Virus record (IMG/VR): IMGVR_UViG_2740892230_000002
Length of the DNA: 6,541 nt
Reading direction: 5' to 3' (one strand)
From: a virus
Lineage: Duplodnaviria > Heunggongvirae > Uroviricota > Caudoviricetes
The notes under the pieces were generated by a model. It worked only from the letters and a program-made list of their open reading frames with translations, ran no database searches and was not told where the DNA came from. Shown one piece after another: positions 273-6,541 of the stretch; the first letter of the stretch is position 1, and every line of letters starts with the position of its first letter. Made by a program: the position numbers and the translations under genes.

Positions 273-303
273 AAAAAACCCAGCTTCGGCTGGGTTTTTT
301 ATT
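273..303 (+). terminator. Rho-independent terminator (possibly bidirectional)
   Basis: Perfect hairpin CCCAGC-ttcg-GCTGGG (279-294) followed by T6 (295-300) and preceded by A6 (273-278), 14 nt after the upstream stop. Confidence 0.8.
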
Positions 304-2220: not shown

Positions 2221-2230
2221 NNNNNNNNNN
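2221..2230. other. Scaffold gap (10 N)
   Basis: Run of 10 n; the sequence to its right restarts inside ninF, a gene already present at 728-904. Confidence 0.95.
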
Positions 2231-3040: not shown

Positions 3041-3702
3041 ATATCTACGAAAGAATTGATGGCAGCAAATACCGAAATATTTGGGTAGTTGGCGATCTGC
3101 ACGGATGCTACACGAACCTGATGAAAAAACTGGAGACGATAGGATTCGACACCAAAAAAGACCTGCTTATCTCGGTGGGCGATTTGGTTGATCGCGGTAC
3201 AGAGAACGTAGAATGCCTGGAATTAATCACATTCCCCTGGTTCAGAGCTGTACGTGGAAACCATGAGCAAATGATGATTGATGGCTTATCAGAGCGTGGA
3301 AACGTCAATCACTGGCTGCTTAATGGCGGTGGCTGGTTCTTTAATCTCGATTACGACAAAGAAATTCTGGCTAAAGCTCTTGCCCATAAAGCAGATGAAC
3401 TTCCGTTAATCATCGAACTGGTGAGTAAAGGAAAAAAATATGTCATCTGCCATGCCGATTATCCTTGTGATAAATACGAGTTTGGAAAGCCAGTTGATCA
3501 TCAGCAGGTAATCTGGAACCGCGAACGAATCAGCAACTCACAAGACGGGATCGTGAAAGAAATCAAAGGCGCGGACACGTTCATCTTTGGTCATACGCCA
3601 GCAGTGAAGCCACTCAAATTTGCCAACCAGATGTATATCGATACTGGCGCAGTGTTCTGCGGAAACCTCACATTGATTCAGGTACAGGGAGAAGGCGCAT
3701 GA
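3037..3702 (+). CDS. ninI: Lambda-type Ser/Thr protein phosphatase (NinI, 221 aa)
   Basis: 221-aa ORF with metallophosphatase motifs GDLHG, GDLVDRG, GNHE; near-identical to lambda protein phosphatase as recalled. ATGA overlaps with ninG upstream and Q downstream. Confidence 0.9.
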
Positions 3703-3849
3703 GACTCGAAAGCGTAGCTAAATTTCATTCGCCAAAAAGCCCGATGATGAGCGACTCACCACGGGCCACGGCTTCTGACTCTCTTTCCGGTACTGATGTG
3801 ATGGCTGCTATGGGGATGGCGCAATCACAAGCCGGATTCGGAATGGCTG
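3699..3849 (+). CDS. Q: Late antiterminator Q, 5' part (first 50 codons); interrupted by gap
   Basis: [50 protein letters not shown] matches the lambda Q N-terminus as recalled. The frame is broken by the 10-N run at 3850. Confidence 0.85.
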
Positions 3850-3859
3850 NNNNNNNNNN
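3850..3859. other. Scaffold gap (10 N)
   Basis: Run of 10 n; followed by a 71-bp variant copy of the ninI 3' end. Confidence 0.95.
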
Positions 3860-3930
3860 ACCACTCAAGTTTGCCAACCAGATGTATATAGATACCGGCG
3901 CAGTGTTCTGCGGAAACCTCACATTGATTC
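3860..3930 (+). repeat. 71-bp near-duplicate of the ninI 3' end (allelic scaffold fragment)
   Basis: Matches 3607-3677 with about 3 mismatches; encodes [23 protein letters not shown]; bounded by N-runs on both sides. Confidence 0.7.
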
Positions 3931-3940
3931 NNNNNNNNNN
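3931..3940. other. Scaffold gap (10 N)
   Basis: Run of 10 n. Confidence 0.95.
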
Positions 3941-3997
3941 CATTCTGCGGTAAGCATGAACTAAGCCAGAACGACAAACAAAAGGCTATCAACTATC
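3941..3997 (+). repeat. 57-bp internal Q fragment, variant allele
   Basis: Encodes AFCGKHELSQNDKQKAINY (Q residues about 51-69); differs by about 4 SNPs from the copy at 4008-4064; bounded by N-runs. Confidence 0.7.
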
Positions 3998-4007
3998 NNN
4001 NNNNNNN
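3998..4007. other. Scaffold gap (10 N)
   Basis: Run of 10 n. Confidence 0.95.
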
Positions 4008-4009
4008 TA

Positions 4010-4480
4010 TTCTGTGGTAAGCACGAACTCAGCCAGAACGACAAACAAAAGGCTATCAACTATCTGATGCAATTTGCACACAAGGTATCGGGGAAATACC
4101 GTGGTGTGGCAAAGCTTGAAGGAAATACTAAGGCAAAGGTACTGCAAGTGCTCGCAACATTCGCTTATGCGGATTATTGCCGTAGTGCCGCTACGCCGGG
4201 CGCAAGATGCAGAGATTGCCACGGTACAGGCCGTGCGGTTGATATAGCCAAAACAGAGCAGTGGGGGATAGTTGCTGAGAAAGAGTGCGGAAGATGTAAA
4301 GGCGTCGGTTATTCAAGAATGCCAGCAAGCGCCGCATATCGCGCTGTGACGATGCTAATCCCAAACCTTACCCAACCCACCTGGTCACGCACTGTTAAGC
4401 CGCTGTATGACGCTCTGGTTGTGCAATGCCACAAGGAAGAGTCAATCGCAGACAACATTTTGAATGCGATCACACGTTAG
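4010..4480 (+). CDS. Q: Late antiterminator Q, 3' part (about 156 codons); 5' end lost in gap
   Basis: Frame is open from 4010 to stop TAG 4478-4480. Translation (FCGKHELSQNDKQKAINYLMQFAHKVSGKYRGVAKLEG...CRDCHGTGR...CGRCKGVGY...QCHKEESIADNILNAITR) matches lambda Q including the Zn-binding cysteines. The 50 codons at 3699-3849 plus this part sum to the 207-aa lambda Q length. Confidence 0.85.
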   Translation, partial: FCGKHELSQNDKQKAINYLMQFAHKVSGKYRGVAKLEGNTKAKVLQVLATFAYADYCRSAATPGARCRDCHGTGRAVDIAKTEQWGIVAEKECGRCKGVGYSRMPASAAYRAVTMLIPNLTQPTWSRTVKPLYDALVVQCHKEESIADNILNAITR

Positions 4481-4522
4481 CGCCATGATTGCCACGGATG
4501 GCAACATATTAACGGCATAATA

Positions 4523-4556
4523 TTGACTTTTTGAATAACTTTGGGGAAACTTGACA
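4523..4556 (+). promoter_or_regulatory. pR'-like late promoter with Q-utilisation (qut) region
   Basis: TTGACT (4523-4528), 18 nt, AAACTT, then TTGACA (4551-4556), 43 nt after the Q stop. The string TTGACTtTTTGAATAAcTTTGGGgAAAcTTGAC parallels lambda pR'/qut as recalled. The -10 is weak by consensus, as expected for a Q-dependent promoter. Confidence 0.5.
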
Positions 4557-4692
4557 CCAATAATGGGCGTTTTTTACATGTCATTGATGAGTCTCAATAA
4601 CCTGCCGCCGAGTAGTTTTTATGCTCTGAATTGTATTTGTGTAGTAAACATGCTGACTGCAATGTAATAGAGTTTTTTTAGCCTGTAACCTC

Positions 4693-4722
4693 TTGACGGC
4701 ATTGAATTGCTTTTGTTATGAG
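4693..4722 (+). promoter_or_regulatory. Candidate sigma70 promoter in front of the membrane-protein gene
   Basis: TTGACG (4693-4698), 18 nt, TATGAG (4717-4722); inspection only. If real, the ATG at 4718 lies in the -10 and cannot be the start codon. Confidence 0.25.
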
Positions 4723-4759
4723 TTGTAAGCCAATGTTATCATCTTGTATTGGGGTGGTT

Positions 4760-5476
4760 ATGAAGGATGGTGCGCTGCTCAGGAGTTCTTCACTTTTTAT
4801 TGCCTACATGGGATGCCTTGGATGGGGGAGTGCTTATTTCTATGGATGGGGTACTTCTTTTTACTACGGCTTCCCATGGTGGATTGTAGGTGCAGGTGTT
4901 GATGATGTTGCCAGAAGTTTATTTTTTGCAGTTATCGTCATTGCTATATTTCTTATCGGTTGGGGTATTGGTGTTGTATTCTTTTTCGCAGTGAAAAGAA
5001 AACATTCTATGCAAGAGCTAAATGTATTTCGCCTTTATTTTGCTGTGGAATTATTGTTTGTGCCGGCAATTATTGAGTTTTCTATATTGAGACAGAAGAT
5101 TCAGGTACCTCTTTTGCTACTGTCAGCAGCGATTGCGCTGGCGGTTACAATTTCGATAAGATCTTATGGGCGATTTTTATCGGTATCATGCTTCTATGAT
5201 AAGCCATTTATAAAAAAACATTTTTTTGAGATTGTGATGATTGCTTTTGTGGCATATTTCTGGCTTTTTTCATTTCTGACAGGATATTACAAACCGCAGT
5301 TTAAGAAAGAATATGAAATGATTAATTATAATGATGGTTGGTATTATGTTCTTGCTCGTTATGATAATTGTCTGGTTTTGTCTACTTCTTTCAATGCAGG
5401 TAGTAAAAGGTTTGTCATTTATCAATCAGCACAAGATAAGAATCTTCAGGTTGATATTGTAAGGACCAGAATTTAA
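4760..5476 (+). CDS. Uncharacterised integral membrane protein (about 5 predicted TM helices and a roughly 60-aa C-terminal soluble domain); AT-rich cargo gene
   Basis: Long ORF (track 4718-5476) with no competing antisense ORF. Five hydrophobic stretches rich in W/F/Y and GxxxG-like motifs (GWGSAYFYGWG, LIGWGIGVVFFF), then a polar C-terminus (YNDGWYYVLARYDNCLVLSTSFNAGSKRF...). Start preferred at ATG 4760 (GGGG at 4751-4754, 5-nt spacing); 4718 and 4733 are alternatives. Noticeably lower GC by eye than the flanking phage genes. No family recognised. Confidence 0.65.
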   Translation: MKDGALLRSSSLFIAYMGCLGWGSAYFYGWGTSFYYGFPWWIVGAGVDDVARSLFFAVIVIAIFLIGWGIGVVFFFAVKRKHSMQELNVFRLYFAVELLFVPAIIEFSILRQKIQVPLLLLSAAIALAVTISIRSYGRFLSVSCFYDKPFIKKHFFEIVMIAFVAYFWLFSFLTGYYKPQFKKEYEMINYNDGWYYVLARYDNCLVLSTSFNAGSKRFVIYQSAQDKNLQVDIVRTRI

Positions 5477-5609
5477 TTGGCTGCATAAATAATATTTTAA
5501 GTTGCAAGTTGGCTATTCGTAGGAATAGAACCTTAGGCATGCTGAATGCGTTTTCTGAACATTGTTTTATAAACTGTGTCTGCTTGCTGTTGTGATCCTG
5601 CTTTTAGTG

Positions 5610-5720
5610 ATGGTGATGATGGATTTCACCAGCAGGATAATGTTGGTACTGACTGATGGCGCTCTGGTCTGCGGCATTGTGGTATTGCTGTGGCCGATGA
5701 TGAAAGAACAGAATGAATAA
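5610..5720 (+). CDS. Possible 36-aa small hydrophobic protein (single TM helix, acidic/polar tail)
   Basis: ATG 5610 to TAA 5718-5720 encodes MVMMDFTSRIMLVLTDGALVCGIVVLLWPMMKEQNE. No convincing Shine-Dalgarno, and the start lies in a GTGATG tandem repeat; below the ORF-track size cutoff. Confidence 0.2.
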   Translation: MVMMDFTSRIMLVLTDGALVCGIVVLLWPMMKEQNE

Positions 5721-5906
5721 TTCTTGACTTTTTTGTTTACTGTTTATTAAAAAACCAACCGCATGGTGAATCCTCCTTGGAGGGGCTAAATGATCGAGTT
5801 TTAAGGGCACGTAGCGAGTTCTGTTTGATCATTGCAGAACTTAGCGGGAGGCGCCATGCGTACATCACTAATGTTATTTCCTTCTATCATTTTCCTTGTG
5901 AGTTCT

Positions 5907-5933
5907 GGCTGCGCATGGCGCGGCCTTTTTTTT
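5907..5933 (+). terminator. Rho-independent terminator
   Basis: GGCTGCGC-atg-GCGCGGCC, an 8-bp stem (one G·U pair in RNA), followed by T8 (5926-5933). A variant of the same element recurs at 6382-6406. Confidence 0.75.
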
Positions 5934-5938
5934 ATGAC

Positions 5939-5951
5939 CTGCCACTGGCAG
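5939..5951. promoter_or_regulatory. Perfect 13-bp palindrome CTGCCACTGGCAG within a larger TGACC...GGTCA inverted repeat; candidate protein-binding site
   Basis: CTGCCA-C-TGGCAG is its own reverse complement. It is flanked by TGACC (5935-5939) and GGTCA (5954-5958) and is conserved in the second copy (6412-6424). It sits directly after the terminator T-tract. Confidence 0.35.
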
Positions 5952-6122
5952 ATGGTCATCCTGTGATTTGATTCCGGTTCCGGCTTTTTAACTCTGTTCC
6001 TGTACACGGGAGAAATTCTATGTCGATTAATCGTTATGATATTGGTTACAAGAAGTACCACGTATTGTGTTGAGATAGAAAGCCTGGTGCCAGAGGTAAA
6101 TGCAGCAGCATAATAAAAAAGA

Positions 6123-6162
6123 GCCAGCGCAGAAGAGAACGGGTAAAAGAGTCTGCGCTGGC
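6123..6162 (-). terminator. Terminator-like hairpin readable on the minus strand
   Basis: 11-bp perfect inverted repeat GCCAGCGCAGA / TCTGCGCTGGC (6123-6133 and 6152-6162) with an 18-nt loop; on the minus strand the stem is followed by CTTTTTTATTAT. A second small hairpin GGGG-atatt-CCCC lies at 6165-6177. Confidence 0.35.
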
Positions 6163-6335
6163 GTGGGGATATTCCCCGTGGAGAAATGATATGTAACACA
6201 CATCGGGAACCTTTCTATATAAACATTATCATTATTGTCAATCATAACAGTCAGGTATTATGACGTTTATGCATCAGGGCCATCAGGAATTAACTGGTGG
6301 CTTTTTATTGTTGTCAGCTTCCGGATAACGGGAGA

Positions 6336-6345
6336 NNNNNNNNNN
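6336..6345. other. Scaffold gap (10 N)
   Basis: Run of 10 n; the sequence to its right is a variant copy of 5871-6043. Confidence 0.95.
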
Positions 6346-6516
6346 GTGTTATTCCTTTTATCATTTTCCTTGTGAGTTCTGGCTGCGCATTGCGCAGCTT
6401 TTTTTTATGACCTGCCACTGGCAGATGGTCATCCTGTGATTTGATTCCGGTTCCGGCTTTTTAACTCTGTTCCTGTACACGGGAGAAATTCGATGTCGAT
6501 TAAACATTATGATGTT
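6346..6516 (+). repeat. Near-duplicate (variant allele) of 5871-6043: terminator, palindrome, RBS and gene start
   Basis: Aligns to 5871-6043 with several SNPs and a 1-nt indel; the two copies diverge about 8 codons into the downstream ORF. Confidence 0.75.
6382..6406 (+). terminator. Rho-independent terminator (second-copy variant)
   Basis: GCTGCGCA-t-TGCGCAGC perfect inverted repeat followed by T8 (6399-6406). Confidence 0.7.
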
Positions 6517-6541
6517 GTCAGGGCGGCGTCGCCGTCAGACC
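6493..6541 (+). CDS. 5' end of an unidentified gene running off the right window edge
   Basis: GGGAG (6481-6485), 7 nt, ATG 6493; reading MSIKHYDVVRAASPSD... with no stop to the window end. The sequence becomes GC-rich. Product not recognised. Confidence 0.35.
   Translation, partial: MSIKHYDVVRAASPSD

What the first reader, a model, noticed from the sequence alone, without database searches (positions are those of the whole stretch)
4523..5933. No terminator between the late promoter and the cargo gene; first strong terminator is about 1.35 kb downstream
In lambda a short leader RNA ends at tR', roughly 200 nt after pR'. Here I see no hairpin followed by a T-tract between 4556 and the membrane gene start. 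The first convincing intrinsic terminator is at 5907-5933, after the membrane ORF and the small hydrophobic ORF. The cargo would then be transcribed from pR' even without Q and strongly after Q loading. The terminator at 5907-5933 may be the functional tR' equivalent, displaced by the insertion.
Basis: partly seen in the sequence, partly recalled or inferred. Interest (0 to 1): 0.5.

Follow-up and report, generated by a model that had tools for sequence, protein, structure and literature searches.

The report
Late promoter runs into self-promoted cargo
In this E. coli prophage the usual stop signal after the late promoter has decayed, but the cargo gene has its own promoters, and the first strong stop signal 1.37 kb downstream belongs to the known small RNA PasD, so this is a modest variant of a known layout.

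Summary
A lambda-type pR' lies at 4523-4564, and no canonical intrinsic terminator lies between it and the membrane gene (start 4760). The first strong terminator is 5907-5933, about 1375 nt from the start site.

- The terminator is not a displaced lambda tR'. It is the 3' end of the published Hfq-binding sRNA PasD1 (window 5761-5933, identical to EPEC E2348/69 PasD1). PasD1 belongs to the PasD/STnc100 family, which sits upstream of the lysis genes in many EHEC/EPEC prophages.
- A decayed homologue of the short terminator that follows the phage 434 (Q82-type) late promoter survives at 4601-4620. Its hairpin is -1.5 kcal/mol with U5, against -9.0 kcal/mol with U8 in phage 434.
- The cargo is a classic AT-rich moron (PF27470 membrane protein plus DUF3927). 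Published Cappable-seq on identical sequence in EDL933 maps constitutive start sites to window 4729 and 4749, so it has its own promoters.
- EPEC RNA-seq shows similar cargo counts whether the upstream terminator is decayed (147) or intact (226). The two copies are nearly identical, so reads cannot be assigned with confidence.

pR' read-through into the cargo is plausible but unmeasured, and it is not needed to explain lysogenic expression. Interest is low to moderate.

The parts
3699..4480 (+). Lambda-type antiterminator Q gene. In this window it is interrupted by N10 spacers and allelic duplicates; 4067-4480 is clean.
   Evidence: Pfam PF03589 Antiterm, E = 6.9e-38. The intact EPEC PP4 allele is 98% identical to lambda Q.
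4523..4564 (+). Late promoter pR' with its Q-utilisation elements: -35 TTGACT 4523-4528; the spacer that holds the Q-binding element 4529-4545; -10 GAAACT 4546-4551; start site about 4558-4559; -10-like pause-inducing element AATAAT 4559-4564.
   Evidence: Aligns column for column with lambda, HK446, mEp234 and HK022 pR', where promoter and qut are annotated. Identical in the plaque-purified phage 2B8. Activity was not measured.
4559..4728 (+). Untranslated pR' leader without a canonical terminator. It is T-rich (36% GC) with G above C throughout.
   Evidence: Positions 4560-4598 are unique to this lineage and phage 2B8.
4601..4620 (+). Decayed homologue of the short terminator that follows the phage 434 (Q82-type) late promoter: CCTGCCGCCGAGTAG + T5, against CCCGCTGCCGAGTGGG + T8 in phage 434.
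   Evidence: Alignment. The terminator is annotated in phage 434. Hairpin dG is -1.5 here against -9.0 (434) and -5.5 kcal/mol (EPEC PP2). Pairing probability in the nascent RNA is about 0.01.
4623..4679 (+). Weak candidate terminator: a long imperfect hairpin (basal stem GCUCUG/UAGAGU) followed by a T7 run at 4673-4679.
   Evidence: dG is -7.5 to -9.8 kcal/mol and no better than shuffles (z = -0.28). Basal-stem probability is about 0.5. The stem is not conserved in the 434-type sequence.
4693..4729 (+). Cassette promoter P1: -35 TTGACG 4693-4698, an 18-nt spacer, extended -10 TGtTATGAG 4714-4722, start site G4729.
   Evidence: EDL933 Cappable-seq TSS 899964 was found in 8 of 8 conditions and was the strongest gene TSS in 5 of 8. 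It maps to window 4729 on identical sequence.
4713..4749 (+). Cassette promoter P2: -35 TTGTTA 4713-4718, an 18-nt spacer, extended -10 TGtTATCAT 4734-4742, start site T4749.
   Evidence: It is the only + strand promoter-like site in 4556-4760 reported by the scan. EDL933 Cappable-seq TSS 899984 was found in 7 of 8 conditions.
4760..5476 (+). Cargo gene 1: a 238-aa polytopic membrane protein. It is labelled Pfam PF27470 'TfpB', named 'STM1630 family' by PGAP, and matches phrog_1521. Function unknown.
   Evidence: Four to five hydrophobic segments. Present in 692 of 5426 complete E. coli genomes. Expressed in uninduced EPEC.
5562..5720 (+). Cargo gene 2: a DUF3927 / TciB-like small membrane protein of 52 aa.
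   Evidence: Pfam PF13064, E = 3.4e-14. phrog_1470.
5724..5755 (+). Predicted promoter of PasD: -35 TTGACT 5724-5729 and an A/T-rich -10 region, for example TAAAAA 5748-5753. This is a prediction only.
   Evidence: Read from the sequence. The PasD1 5' end estimated from RNA-seq (window 5761) lies 8 nt downstream. PasD is about 60 times more abundant than the cargo mRNA.
5761..5933 (+). PasD1 sRNA gene (EcOnc13 homologue in EHEC; PasD/STnc100 family). The seed UGUGAG is at 5897-5902. The intrinsic terminator is at 5907-5933 (stem 5907-5925, U8 5926-5933).
   Evidence: There are no differences from EPEC PasD1 (NC_011601 1060260-1060432). The northern probe is the reverse complement of 5894-5917. 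The Rfam STnc100 hit scores 37.5 bits against a gathering score of 47. The fold has z = -2.07.
6346..6407 (+). The 3' part of a second, PasD2-like allele with its terminator (stem 6381-6399, then U8). It follows an N10 spacer in the composite window.

Best explanation
The window covers the Q-to-lysis junction of a lambda-Q-type lambdoid prophage. The arrangement occurs in E. coli O157:H7 and EPEC and is the same as in the viable phage 2B8.

The slot between the late promoter and the lysis genes, where Stx phages carry stx, holds an AT-rich moron. The moron encodes a PF27470 membrane protein and a DUF3927 protein. It carries two constitutive sigma-70 promoters of its own, with start sites at 4729 and 4749. 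Its transcripts end at the terminator of the downstream sRNA gene pasD.

In the sister arrangement (phage 434, EPEC PP2, EDL933 CP-933K), a short strong terminator lies between the Q82-type late promoter and the same cassette. In this lineage only a decayed copy of that terminator remains, at 4601-4620. RNA polymerase that leaves pR' without Q should therefore mostly run through the 170-nt leader into the cassette and stop at the PasD terminator (5907-5933), about 1375 nt downstream.

That terminator keeps the holin silent in lysogens. After induction, Q-modified polymerase reads through it into the lysis genes.

What is shown: the anatomy, the homologies, the identity of PasD1, the start sites of the cassette promoters (measured on identical sequence in another copy), and expression in lysogens. 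What is inferred: pR' activity, the fraction of cargo mRNA that starts at pR', and Q read-through.
For: - Homology of Q and pR' to lambda-type phages.
- Identical junction in plaque-purified phage 2B8.
- No canonical terminator in 4556-5906.
- Relic terminator and its energetics.
- PasD1 identity and 3' end.
- pasD lies directly upstream of the esterase gene in NC_049952.
- Cappable-seq start sites 899803, 899964 and 899984 in EDL933 match the predicted Q82-type late promoter and P1 and P2 exactly.
- EPEC RNA-seq baseMean. PP4: Q 6, cargo 147, pasD1 8652, holin 5.4. PP2: Q 69, cargo 226, DUF3927 37, pasD2 11017, holin 3.5.
- Cassette boundaries. Against the 434-type copies the window has 11-13 differences in 4610-4661 but only 2 in 4662-5700. 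The 3' flank switches to a canonical STnc100 in the O157 copy.
- GC content is 36% for the cassette and 45-51% for the flanking phage genes.
- The same slot holds TciA/TciB in phages JLK-2012 and Evi.
- The 'bookended' toxin layout of Stx phages is described in PMC7547250.
Against: - There are no 5'-end or 3'-end data for the lambda-type copy itself. The stored Cappable-seq tables stop before 3.57 Mb.
- The two cargo copies in EPEC and EDL933 are nearly identical. RNA-seq and TSS reads therefore cannot be assigned to one copy with confidence.
- The -10 hexamer GAAACT matches the consensus at only 3 of 6 positions and fails the promoter scan threshold. pR' may be weak.
- A long hairpin followed by U7 at 4623-4679 forms with probability about 0.5 in silico and could terminate some transcripts.
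- The PasD promoter is only predicted. PasD could instead be processed from the cassette mRNA.
Confidence: 0.72

Rival explanations
1. The cargo is an insertion into the pR' leader. In lysogens it is expressed mainly by constitutive pR' read-through. The terminator at 5907-5933 is the original tR' pushed downstream.
For: There is no canonical terminator between pR' and the cargo. In EPEC PP4 the cargo count is about 25 times that of Q.
Against: The terminator belongs to PasD1 and shows no similarity to lambda tR'. The cassette has two mapped constitutive start sites of its own. Cargo counts are similar behind an intact terminator in PP2. A remnant of a different terminator lies upstream of the cassette.
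Confidence: 0.15
2. pR' is still insulated from the cargo. Unmodified transcripts end in the leader at non-canonical signals, so the cargo is expressed only from P1 and P2 in lysogens. Candidate signals are the long hairpin plus U7 at 4623-4679, the U6 run at the sigma-dependent pause site, and Rho or H-NS acting on the AT-rich untranslated leader.
For: The basal stem next to U7 forms with probability about 0.5 in the nascent-RNA ensemble. In the 434-type sequence the same stem is broken, and there a real terminator exists upstream. The 170-nt leader is untranslated and AT-rich.
Against: The hairpin is no more stable than shuffled sequence (z = -0.28) and encloses about 39 nt, which is unlike efficient terminators. 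No C-rich, G-poor stretch that would suit Rho loading occurs anywhere in 4558-5900; the largest C minus G difference is 0.04.
Confidence: 0.2
3. pR' in this lineage is crippled (-10 GAAACT), and the junction is debris of a cryptic prophage. Whether a terminator is present would then be irrelevant.
For: The -10 hexamer deviates at -12 and -8 from all four compared lambda-type phages. In O157:H7 the surrounding prophage is riddled with IS elements and truncated genes.
Against: The identical Q, pR' and leader occur in phage 2B8. That phage was released by a natural isolate, plaque-purified and propagated, so its late genes are expressed. The key positions A-11 and T-7, the -35 element, the spacing and the pause element are all intact. 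The sequence is at least 99% conserved in 558 genomes.
Confidence: 0.1

Closest known systems
Phage lambda late operon: Q, pR', qut, 6S RNA, tR'
   Same: Q is 98% identical. The -35 element, the spacer with the Q-binding element, the position of the -10 hexamer and the -10-like pause element are all homologous. The promoter lies immediately 3' of Q.
   Different: There is no 194-nt 6S leader and no tR'. Homology ends at about +10. The -10 is GAAACT rather than TAAATT, and the pause element is AATAAT rather than AACGAT. About 1.37 kb with two genes and an sRNA gene precede the first strong terminator.
Phage 434 (OL657226), EPEC PP2 and EDL933 CP-933K late region, all with a Q82-type Q
   Same: They carry the same cassette (membrane protein, DUF3927, PasD), about 99.8% identical from 4662 onward. 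The cassette is joined to the promoter module at a homologous terminator element.
   Different: Their Q and late promoter are of the Q82 type. Their terminator is intact (-5.5 to -9.0 kcal/mol, U7-U9), giving a short leader. Here the terminator has decayed to -1.5 kcal/mol with U5, and about 40 nt of unique sequence precede it.
PasD1/PasD2 sRNAs (Pearl Mizrahi et al. 2021; Zhu, Shabalina and Storz 2026); EcOnc13 in EHEC; Rfam STnc100 (RF02076)
   Same: Window 5761-5933 is identical to PasD1, including the seed UGUGAG and the terminator. It sits in the same place, upstream of the esterase or holin genes and near an Esr41-like element.
   Different: None for PasD1. Against the Rfam STnc100 model the score is below the gathering threshold (37.5 against 47), in line with the published view that PasD is a diverged relative.
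Stx-phage layout: pR', StxS, tR', then stxAB, then a 3' sRNA (EcOnc42 / STnc100) (Sy et al. 2020; PMC12370729)
   Same: Cargo lies in the same slot between the late promoter and the esterase and lysis genes, and is followed by a terminator-bearing sRNA of the STnc100/PasD family.
   Different: Stx phages keep a functional tR' 258 nt after pR', and it generates the sRNA StxS. Here the 5' 'bookend' terminator is lost and the cargo carries strong promoters of its own.
Morons of lambdoid phages (concept of Juhala, Hendrix and colleagues, 2000; recalled from memory)
   Same: An extra transcription unit with its own promoter and terminator. Its base composition differs from the flanks. It lies between genes that are adjacent in relatives and is expressed from the prophage.
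   Different: The terminator it uses belongs to a separate sRNA gene rather than to the cassette. It lies inside the Q-antiterminated operon, directly after pR'.

Membership tests
Lambda-type pR'/qut late promoter | Lies immediately downstream of a lambda-type Q gene | tested here: met
   The Q stop codon ends at 4480 and the -35 element starts at 4523. Q is 98% identical to lambda Q.
Lambda-type pR'/qut late promoter | Sigma-70 -35 and -10 hexamers with a 17-nt spacer that carries the Q-binding element | tested here: met
   TTGACT, 17 nt, GAAACT. The spacer differs from lambda at 3 of 17 positions, two of which also vary among HK446, mEp234 and HK022. The -10 matches the consensus at only 3 of 6 positions, but A-11 and T-7 are kept.
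Lambda-type pR'/qut late promoter | A -10-like pause-inducing element in the initially transcribed region | tested here: met
   AATAAT at 4559-4564 aligns with lambda AACGAT at +1 to +6.
Lambda-type pR'/qut late promoter | Constitutive promoter activity and Q-dependent antitermination | not testable with these tools
   The only support is indirect: the sequence is identical in the viable phage 2B8.
tR'-type leader terminator (lambda, HK022, 82/434, Stx phages) | A stable G+C-rich hairpin directly followed by a U-tract, within about 40-260 nt of the pR' start | tested here: not met
   There is no hit in the scan. The relic hairpin is -1.5 kcal/mol with U5 and forms with probability about 0.01. 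Comparators: lambda -24.6, phage 434 -9.0, HK022 -11.3 kcal/mol.
PasD sRNA | Sequence identity to PasD1 or PasD2 of E2348/69, including the seed and the northern-probe site | tested here: met
   There are no differences over 5761-5933 against PasD1 coordinates 1060260-1060432. The probe is the reverse complement of 5894-5917.
PasD sRNA | A 3' stem-loop plus poly-U (intrinsic terminator and Hfq site) | tested here: met
   An 8-bp stem, -14.0 kcal/mol, U8.
PasD sRNA | Hfq binding and target regulation | not testable with these tools
   Reported for EPEC by RIL-seq and northern blot (PMC8550237).
Rfam STnc100 (RF02076) | Covariance-model score at or above the gathering threshold (47 bits) | tested here: not met
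   The score is 37.5 bits, E = 1.5e-5, over the full model length. The O157 allele at the same position scores 144.7 bits.
Moron | Own promoter, active in the lysogen | tested here: met
   Published Cappable-seq start sites at the equivalents of 4729 and 4749, on identical sequence. The prediction agrees.
Moron | Base composition distinct from the flanking phage genes | tested here: met
   36% GC for the cassette, 45-51% for ninI and Q.
Moron | Own terminator at the 3' end of the cassette | tested here: inconclusive
   No terminator lies between the DUF3927 stop (5720) and PasD. The first terminator is that of PasD or STnc100, which lies outside the exchanged block.

The most novel reading that the evidence does not exclude
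In lambda-Q-type prophages of EHEC and EPEC, the late-promoter leader has in effect grown from under 200 nt to about 1.37 kb. Constitutive pR' transcription would then feed a virulence-associated membrane cassette and end at the PasD/STnc100 terminator. On this reading the sRNA terminator has taken over the gate function of tR', so the sRNA is the counterpart of lambda 6S RNA and StxS. The weakened -10 and the near-consensus pause element would be compensating adaptations to the lost tR'.
Probability: 0.2. Interest if true: 0.5.

Novelty: new variant of a known kind. Interest (0 to 1): 0.25.

Why it matters
The slot between Q and the lysis genes is where Shiga toxin and other virulence cargo are carried. 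Whether such cargo is expressed in the quiet lysogen or only after induction depends on which promoters and terminators flank it.

Here the cargo is expressed without induction from its own promoters. The barrier that keeps the lysis genes silent is the terminator of a regulatory sRNA, not a tR'. That links sRNA genes of the PasD/STnc100 family to the insulation of the late operon.

The locus also offers a natural pair for measuring what a tR' contributes: the same cassette behind an intact terminator and behind a decayed one, often in the same genome. Beyond that, the parts are known and the locus behaves as lambdoid mosaicism predicts.

Tried and rejected
- Rfam at permissive thresholds found no leader RNA or riboswitch in 4556-4760. 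The only hits were the sub-threshold STnc100/PasD hit and an Esr41-like hit.
- I tried a d'Aubenton-Carafa-type terminator score using a formula recalled from memory. It rated every candidate positive and was dominated by the T term, so I discarded it as unreliable.
- Start-site and 3'-end data for the lambda-type copy could not be obtained. The stored Cappable-seq tables are truncated before 3.57 Mb. The StxS paper has no supplements held. The EDL933 ncRNA tables and the EPEC RIL-seq tables have no entry for the leader.
- Cargo function: PADLOC gave no hit and the local Pfam and NCBIfam copies gave none. The AlphaFold model was of low confidence (pLDDT 58.8), so I did not run a fold search. 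Literature searches for the Pfam label 'TfpB' returned only unrelated uses.
- Idea that PasD derives from lambda 6S RNA or tR': no similarity.
- Idea that the PasD promoter is a duplicated pR': the two share only a 17-nt stretch around TTGACTTTTT, which is not enough to claim homology.
- There are no tRNA genes, unlike in Stx phages.
Full report
**What the window is.** The 6541-base window is a composite. N10 spacers separate near-duplicate allelic pieces. The stretch that holds the finding, 4008-6335, is contiguous. Over 4480-4780 it is 100% identical to many E. coli O157:H7 chromosomes; 558 complete genomes match at 99% or better. Over 4610-5959 it differs from prophage PP4 of EPEC E2348/69 at only four positions. 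The same Q, promoter, leader and cargo arrangement occurs in phage 2B8 (NC_049952), with the junction identical and 98.4% identity overall. Phage 2B8 was released by a natural E. coli isolate, plaque-purified and propagated (PMC6969025). Gene order is ninG, ninI phosphatase, lambda-type Q, late promoter, a membrane-protein gene, a DUF3927 gene, an sRNA gene, and then a remnant of the esterase (nanS-p-like) gene.

**Checking the observation.**
- The promoter reads -35 TTGACT (4523-4528), a 17-nt spacer, then -10 GAAACT (4546-4551). It aligns with pR' of lambda, HK446, mEp234 and HK022 through the -10-like pause element, which is AATAAT at 4559-4564 here and AACGAT in lambda. Homology stops at about +10.
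- Q is 98% identical to lambda Q.
- In lambda the leader ends at tR', 194 nt from the start site. HK022, mEp234 and phage 434 have short terminators within roughly the first 40-75 nt of the transcript.
- In the window, the consensus scan reports no terminator on the + strand between 4556 and 5906. The leader folds no better than shuffled sequence (z = 0.13).
- A permissive custom scan finds only two weak candidates. The first is a 4-bp hairpin at 4602-4615 followed by U5; its dG is about -1.5 kcal/mol and its probability in the nascent RNA is about 0.01. The second is a long imperfect 50-nt hairpin followed by U7 at 4623-4679; its dG is -7.5 to -9.8 kcal/mol, which is not better than shuffles, and its basal-stem probability is about 0.5.
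- The leader and cargo have G above C throughout, so there is no obvious Rho-loading region.
- The terminator at 5907-5933 has 8 bp (7 G-C pairs), dG -14.0 kcal/mol and U8. It is the first strong one, about 1375 nt from the start site.

The caveat is that a terminator-free 200 nt is remarkable only in this genomic context.

**What the downstream terminator is.**
- Rfam gives a full-length but sub-threshold STnc100 hit at 5731-5936: 37.5 bits against a gathering score of 47.
- Zhu, Shabalina and Storz (bioRxiv 2026) report that the prophage sRNA PasD is a diverged relative of STnc100. [quoted passage not shown]
- Table S6 of Pearl Mizrahi et al. 2021 places PasD1 at NC_011601 1060260-1060432 (173 nt). 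Their northern probe is the reverse complement of window 5894-5917.
- Mapping through locus L005 puts PasD1 at window 5761-5933 with zero differences.
A PasD2-like 3' end is the duplicate at 6346-6407.
- Nothing in 4556-6060 resembles lambda 43.8-45.6 kb, so this is not a displaced tR'.
- In the O157:H7 copy of the same Q, leader and cargo arrangement, the position is filled by a canonical STnc100 (144.7 bits) followed by AgvB. STnc100 also lies 75 nt downstream of stx2 in Stx2 phages (PMC12370729). Stx1 is described as 'bookended' by sRNAs (PMC7547250).
- The PasD/STnc100 element is thus a conserved feature at the 3' edge of the cargo slot and is not part of the cargo.

**The missing tR'.**
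- Phage 434, EPEC PP2, Sakai Sp3 and EDL933 CP-933K carry the same cassette behind a Q82-type Q and its own late promoter. There, a short terminator lies between the late promoter and the cassette. It reads CCCGCTGCCGAGTGGG plus U7-U9, with dG -5.5 to -9.0 kcal/mol, and it is annotated in the phage 434 record.
- The window aligns to it as CCTGCCGCCGAGTAG plus U5. That is a decayed homologue, preceded by about 40 nt found only in this lineage and in phage 2B8.
- Divergence between the two contexts is 11-13 differences within 4610-4661, but only 2 within 4662-5700. A recently exchanged cassette therefore starts near 4662, and the terminator region is an older, diverged junction.
- Both arrangements are common: 572 genomes have the lambda-type junction, 618 have the Q82-type junction, and 692 of 5426 carry the cargo, often as two copies.

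**How the cargo is expressed.**
- The cassette is 36% GC, against 45-51% for the flanking genes.
- The only + strand promoter-like site the scan reports between 4556 and 4760 is TTGTTA, 18 nt, TGtTATCAT at 4713-4742. A second site, TTGACG, 18 nt, TGtTATGAG at 4693-4722, can be read from the sequence.
- Table S5 of the EDL933 Cappable-seq study (PMC10469882) lists gene-specific start sites for the CP-933K copy of the cargo at 899803 (8 of 8 conditions), 899964 (8 of 8), 899984 (7 of 8) and 899915 (1 of 8).
- Reading the EDL933 sequence, 899803 is 7 nt after the -10 hexamer of the Q82-type late promoter (TTGCAA, 17 nt, TATACT). Sites 899964 and 899984 are 7 nt after the two predicted -10 elements. 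They correspond to window G4729 and T4749, on sequence identical to the window and to the EDL933 lambda-type copy.
- The start site at 899964 is as strong as the late promoter in that data set; each is the strongest start site in some conditions.
- In uninduced EPEC, DESeq2 baseMean values for PP4, which has this arrangement, are Q 6, cargo 147, pasD1 8652 and holin 5.4. For PP2, which has the intact terminator, they are Q 69, cargo 226, DUF3927 37, pasD2 11017, esterase 102 and holin 3.5.
- The cargo is therefore expressed in lysogens at similar counts with or without the upstream terminator. Its own promoters explain this. The caveat is that the copies are nearly identical, so reads may be mis-assigned.
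- The drop from PasD to the holin shows that the PasD terminator region is the effective barrier in front of the lysis genes.

**Mechanism.** Two cassette promoters, and probably unmodified pR' transcripts as well, drive the membrane gene and the DUF3927 gene, and transcription stops at the PasD terminator. PasD itself is about 60 times more abundant than the cassette mRNA. It probably has its own promoter, with TTGACT at 5724-5729 and an A/T-rich -10 region ending about 8 nt before the estimated 5' end. This is predicted only. After induction, Q loads at pR' and the modified polymerase reads through PasD into the lysis genes; that step is inferred from established lambda biology and from the viability of phage 2B8. 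The -10 GAAACT differs at -12 and -8 from the TAAATT of all four compared phages. Constitutive pR' output is therefore likely to be lower than in lambda (inference).

**Rivals.**
The PasD identity, the cassette start sites and the PP2 comparison contradict it.
- Leader termination at non-canonical signals remains possible. The hairpin plus U7 at 4623-4679 is intact only in this lineage, but it is weak by every measure.
- A dead pR' is unlikely, because the sequence is identical in a viable phage.

**Verdict.** The sequence observation is correct. It is wrong in origin and overstated in consequence. All parts are known: the lambda-type pR', a moron, the PasD sRNA and the phage 434 terminator. 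What appears not to have been described is that the lambda-Q lineage has lost the leader terminator, so that the sRNA terminator is the first gate. This is a modest new variant of a known architecture, of low to moderate interest.

Noticed in passing
window 2221-2230, 2432-2441, 3850-3859, 3931-3940, 3998-4007, 6336-6345: The window is a composite. N10 spacers separate near-duplicate allelic pieces, for example 5925-6044 and 6398-6517 (97%), 3610-3679 and 3861-3930 (96%), and 842-899 and 2238-2295 (91%). ORFs that cross the spacers are artefacts.
   Followed up: partly
window 4760-5476; loci L015-L018: The cargo protein carries the precomputed Pfam label PF27470 'TfpB'. Homologues at 46-59% identity lie next to the heat-labile enterotoxin genes (Enterotoxin_a/b) on ETEC contigs, and next to an SseJ-like effector gene in Salmonella (the STM1630 context). 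The family therefore repeatedly neighbours toxin or effector genes. Its function is unknown. The AlphaFold model was of low confidence (pLDDT 58.8): about 5 transmembrane helices plus a small C-terminal beta domain.
   Followed up: partly
window 6113-6202 (- strand): There is an Esr41-like element with a terminator (32 bits, far below the gathering score of 102). Esr41 is reported to lie often near PasD.
   Followed up: no
window 6020-6073 and 6493-6541: At 6020 the esterase (nanS-p-like, DUF1737 N-terminus) start is a 17-codon remnant ending in a stop. The alternative allele after the N spacer (6493 onward) has the intact start MSIKHYDVVRAASPSD.
   Followed up: partly
window 4570-4575: A T6 run lies where the sigma-dependent, Q-loading pause of lambda (+16/+17) would fall. 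Lambda has GTTAAT there. A U-rich hybrid at the pause site might alter pausing or Q loading.
   Followed up: no
Q protein residues 135-140 (window about 4254-4271) and pR' spacer 4529-4545: Three of the four amino-acid differences from lambda Q cluster at residues 135, 138 and 140. The Q-binding spacer differs from lambda at three positions. This may be co-variation between Q and its binding site.
   Followed up: no
window 5777-5971 (+) and 5801-6199 (-): These ORFs are annotated in some records: a 'putative membrane protein' in phage 434, and a 132-aa antisense ORF (ECs_0817 / E2348C_1013). They overlap the PasD sRNA gene and are probably not genes. The high, Hfq-dependent read count of E2348C_1013 in EPEC RNA-seq most likely reflects PasD1.
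   Followed up: partly
window 274-300: A strong bidirectional terminator (AAAAAACCCAGCTTCGGCTGGGTTTTTT) follows the first ORF. The simple scan misses it, probably because the A6/T6 pairs are absorbed into the stem.
   Followed up: no
loci L013 (phage Evi) and L014 (phage JLK-2012): In these phages the same slot between Q and the lysis genes holds TciA (TerB-like) plus TciB (DUF3927) instead of the PF27470 gene. In Evi a PasD/STnc100-like element follows (70.7% identity to window 5703-6030); JLK-2012 matches the window only from 5903 onward. DUF3927 is thus the constant neighbour at the 3' edge of the slot, and the upstream partner varies.
   Followed up: partly
locus L011 7447-8621 (EDL933 CP-933K); also phage 434: A truncated lambda-type Q fragment is followed by lpxR on the opposite strand, and then by ylcG and a Q82-type Q. 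This suggests that the Q82 module, with lpxR, replaced a lambda-type Q in that lineage.
   Followed up: no
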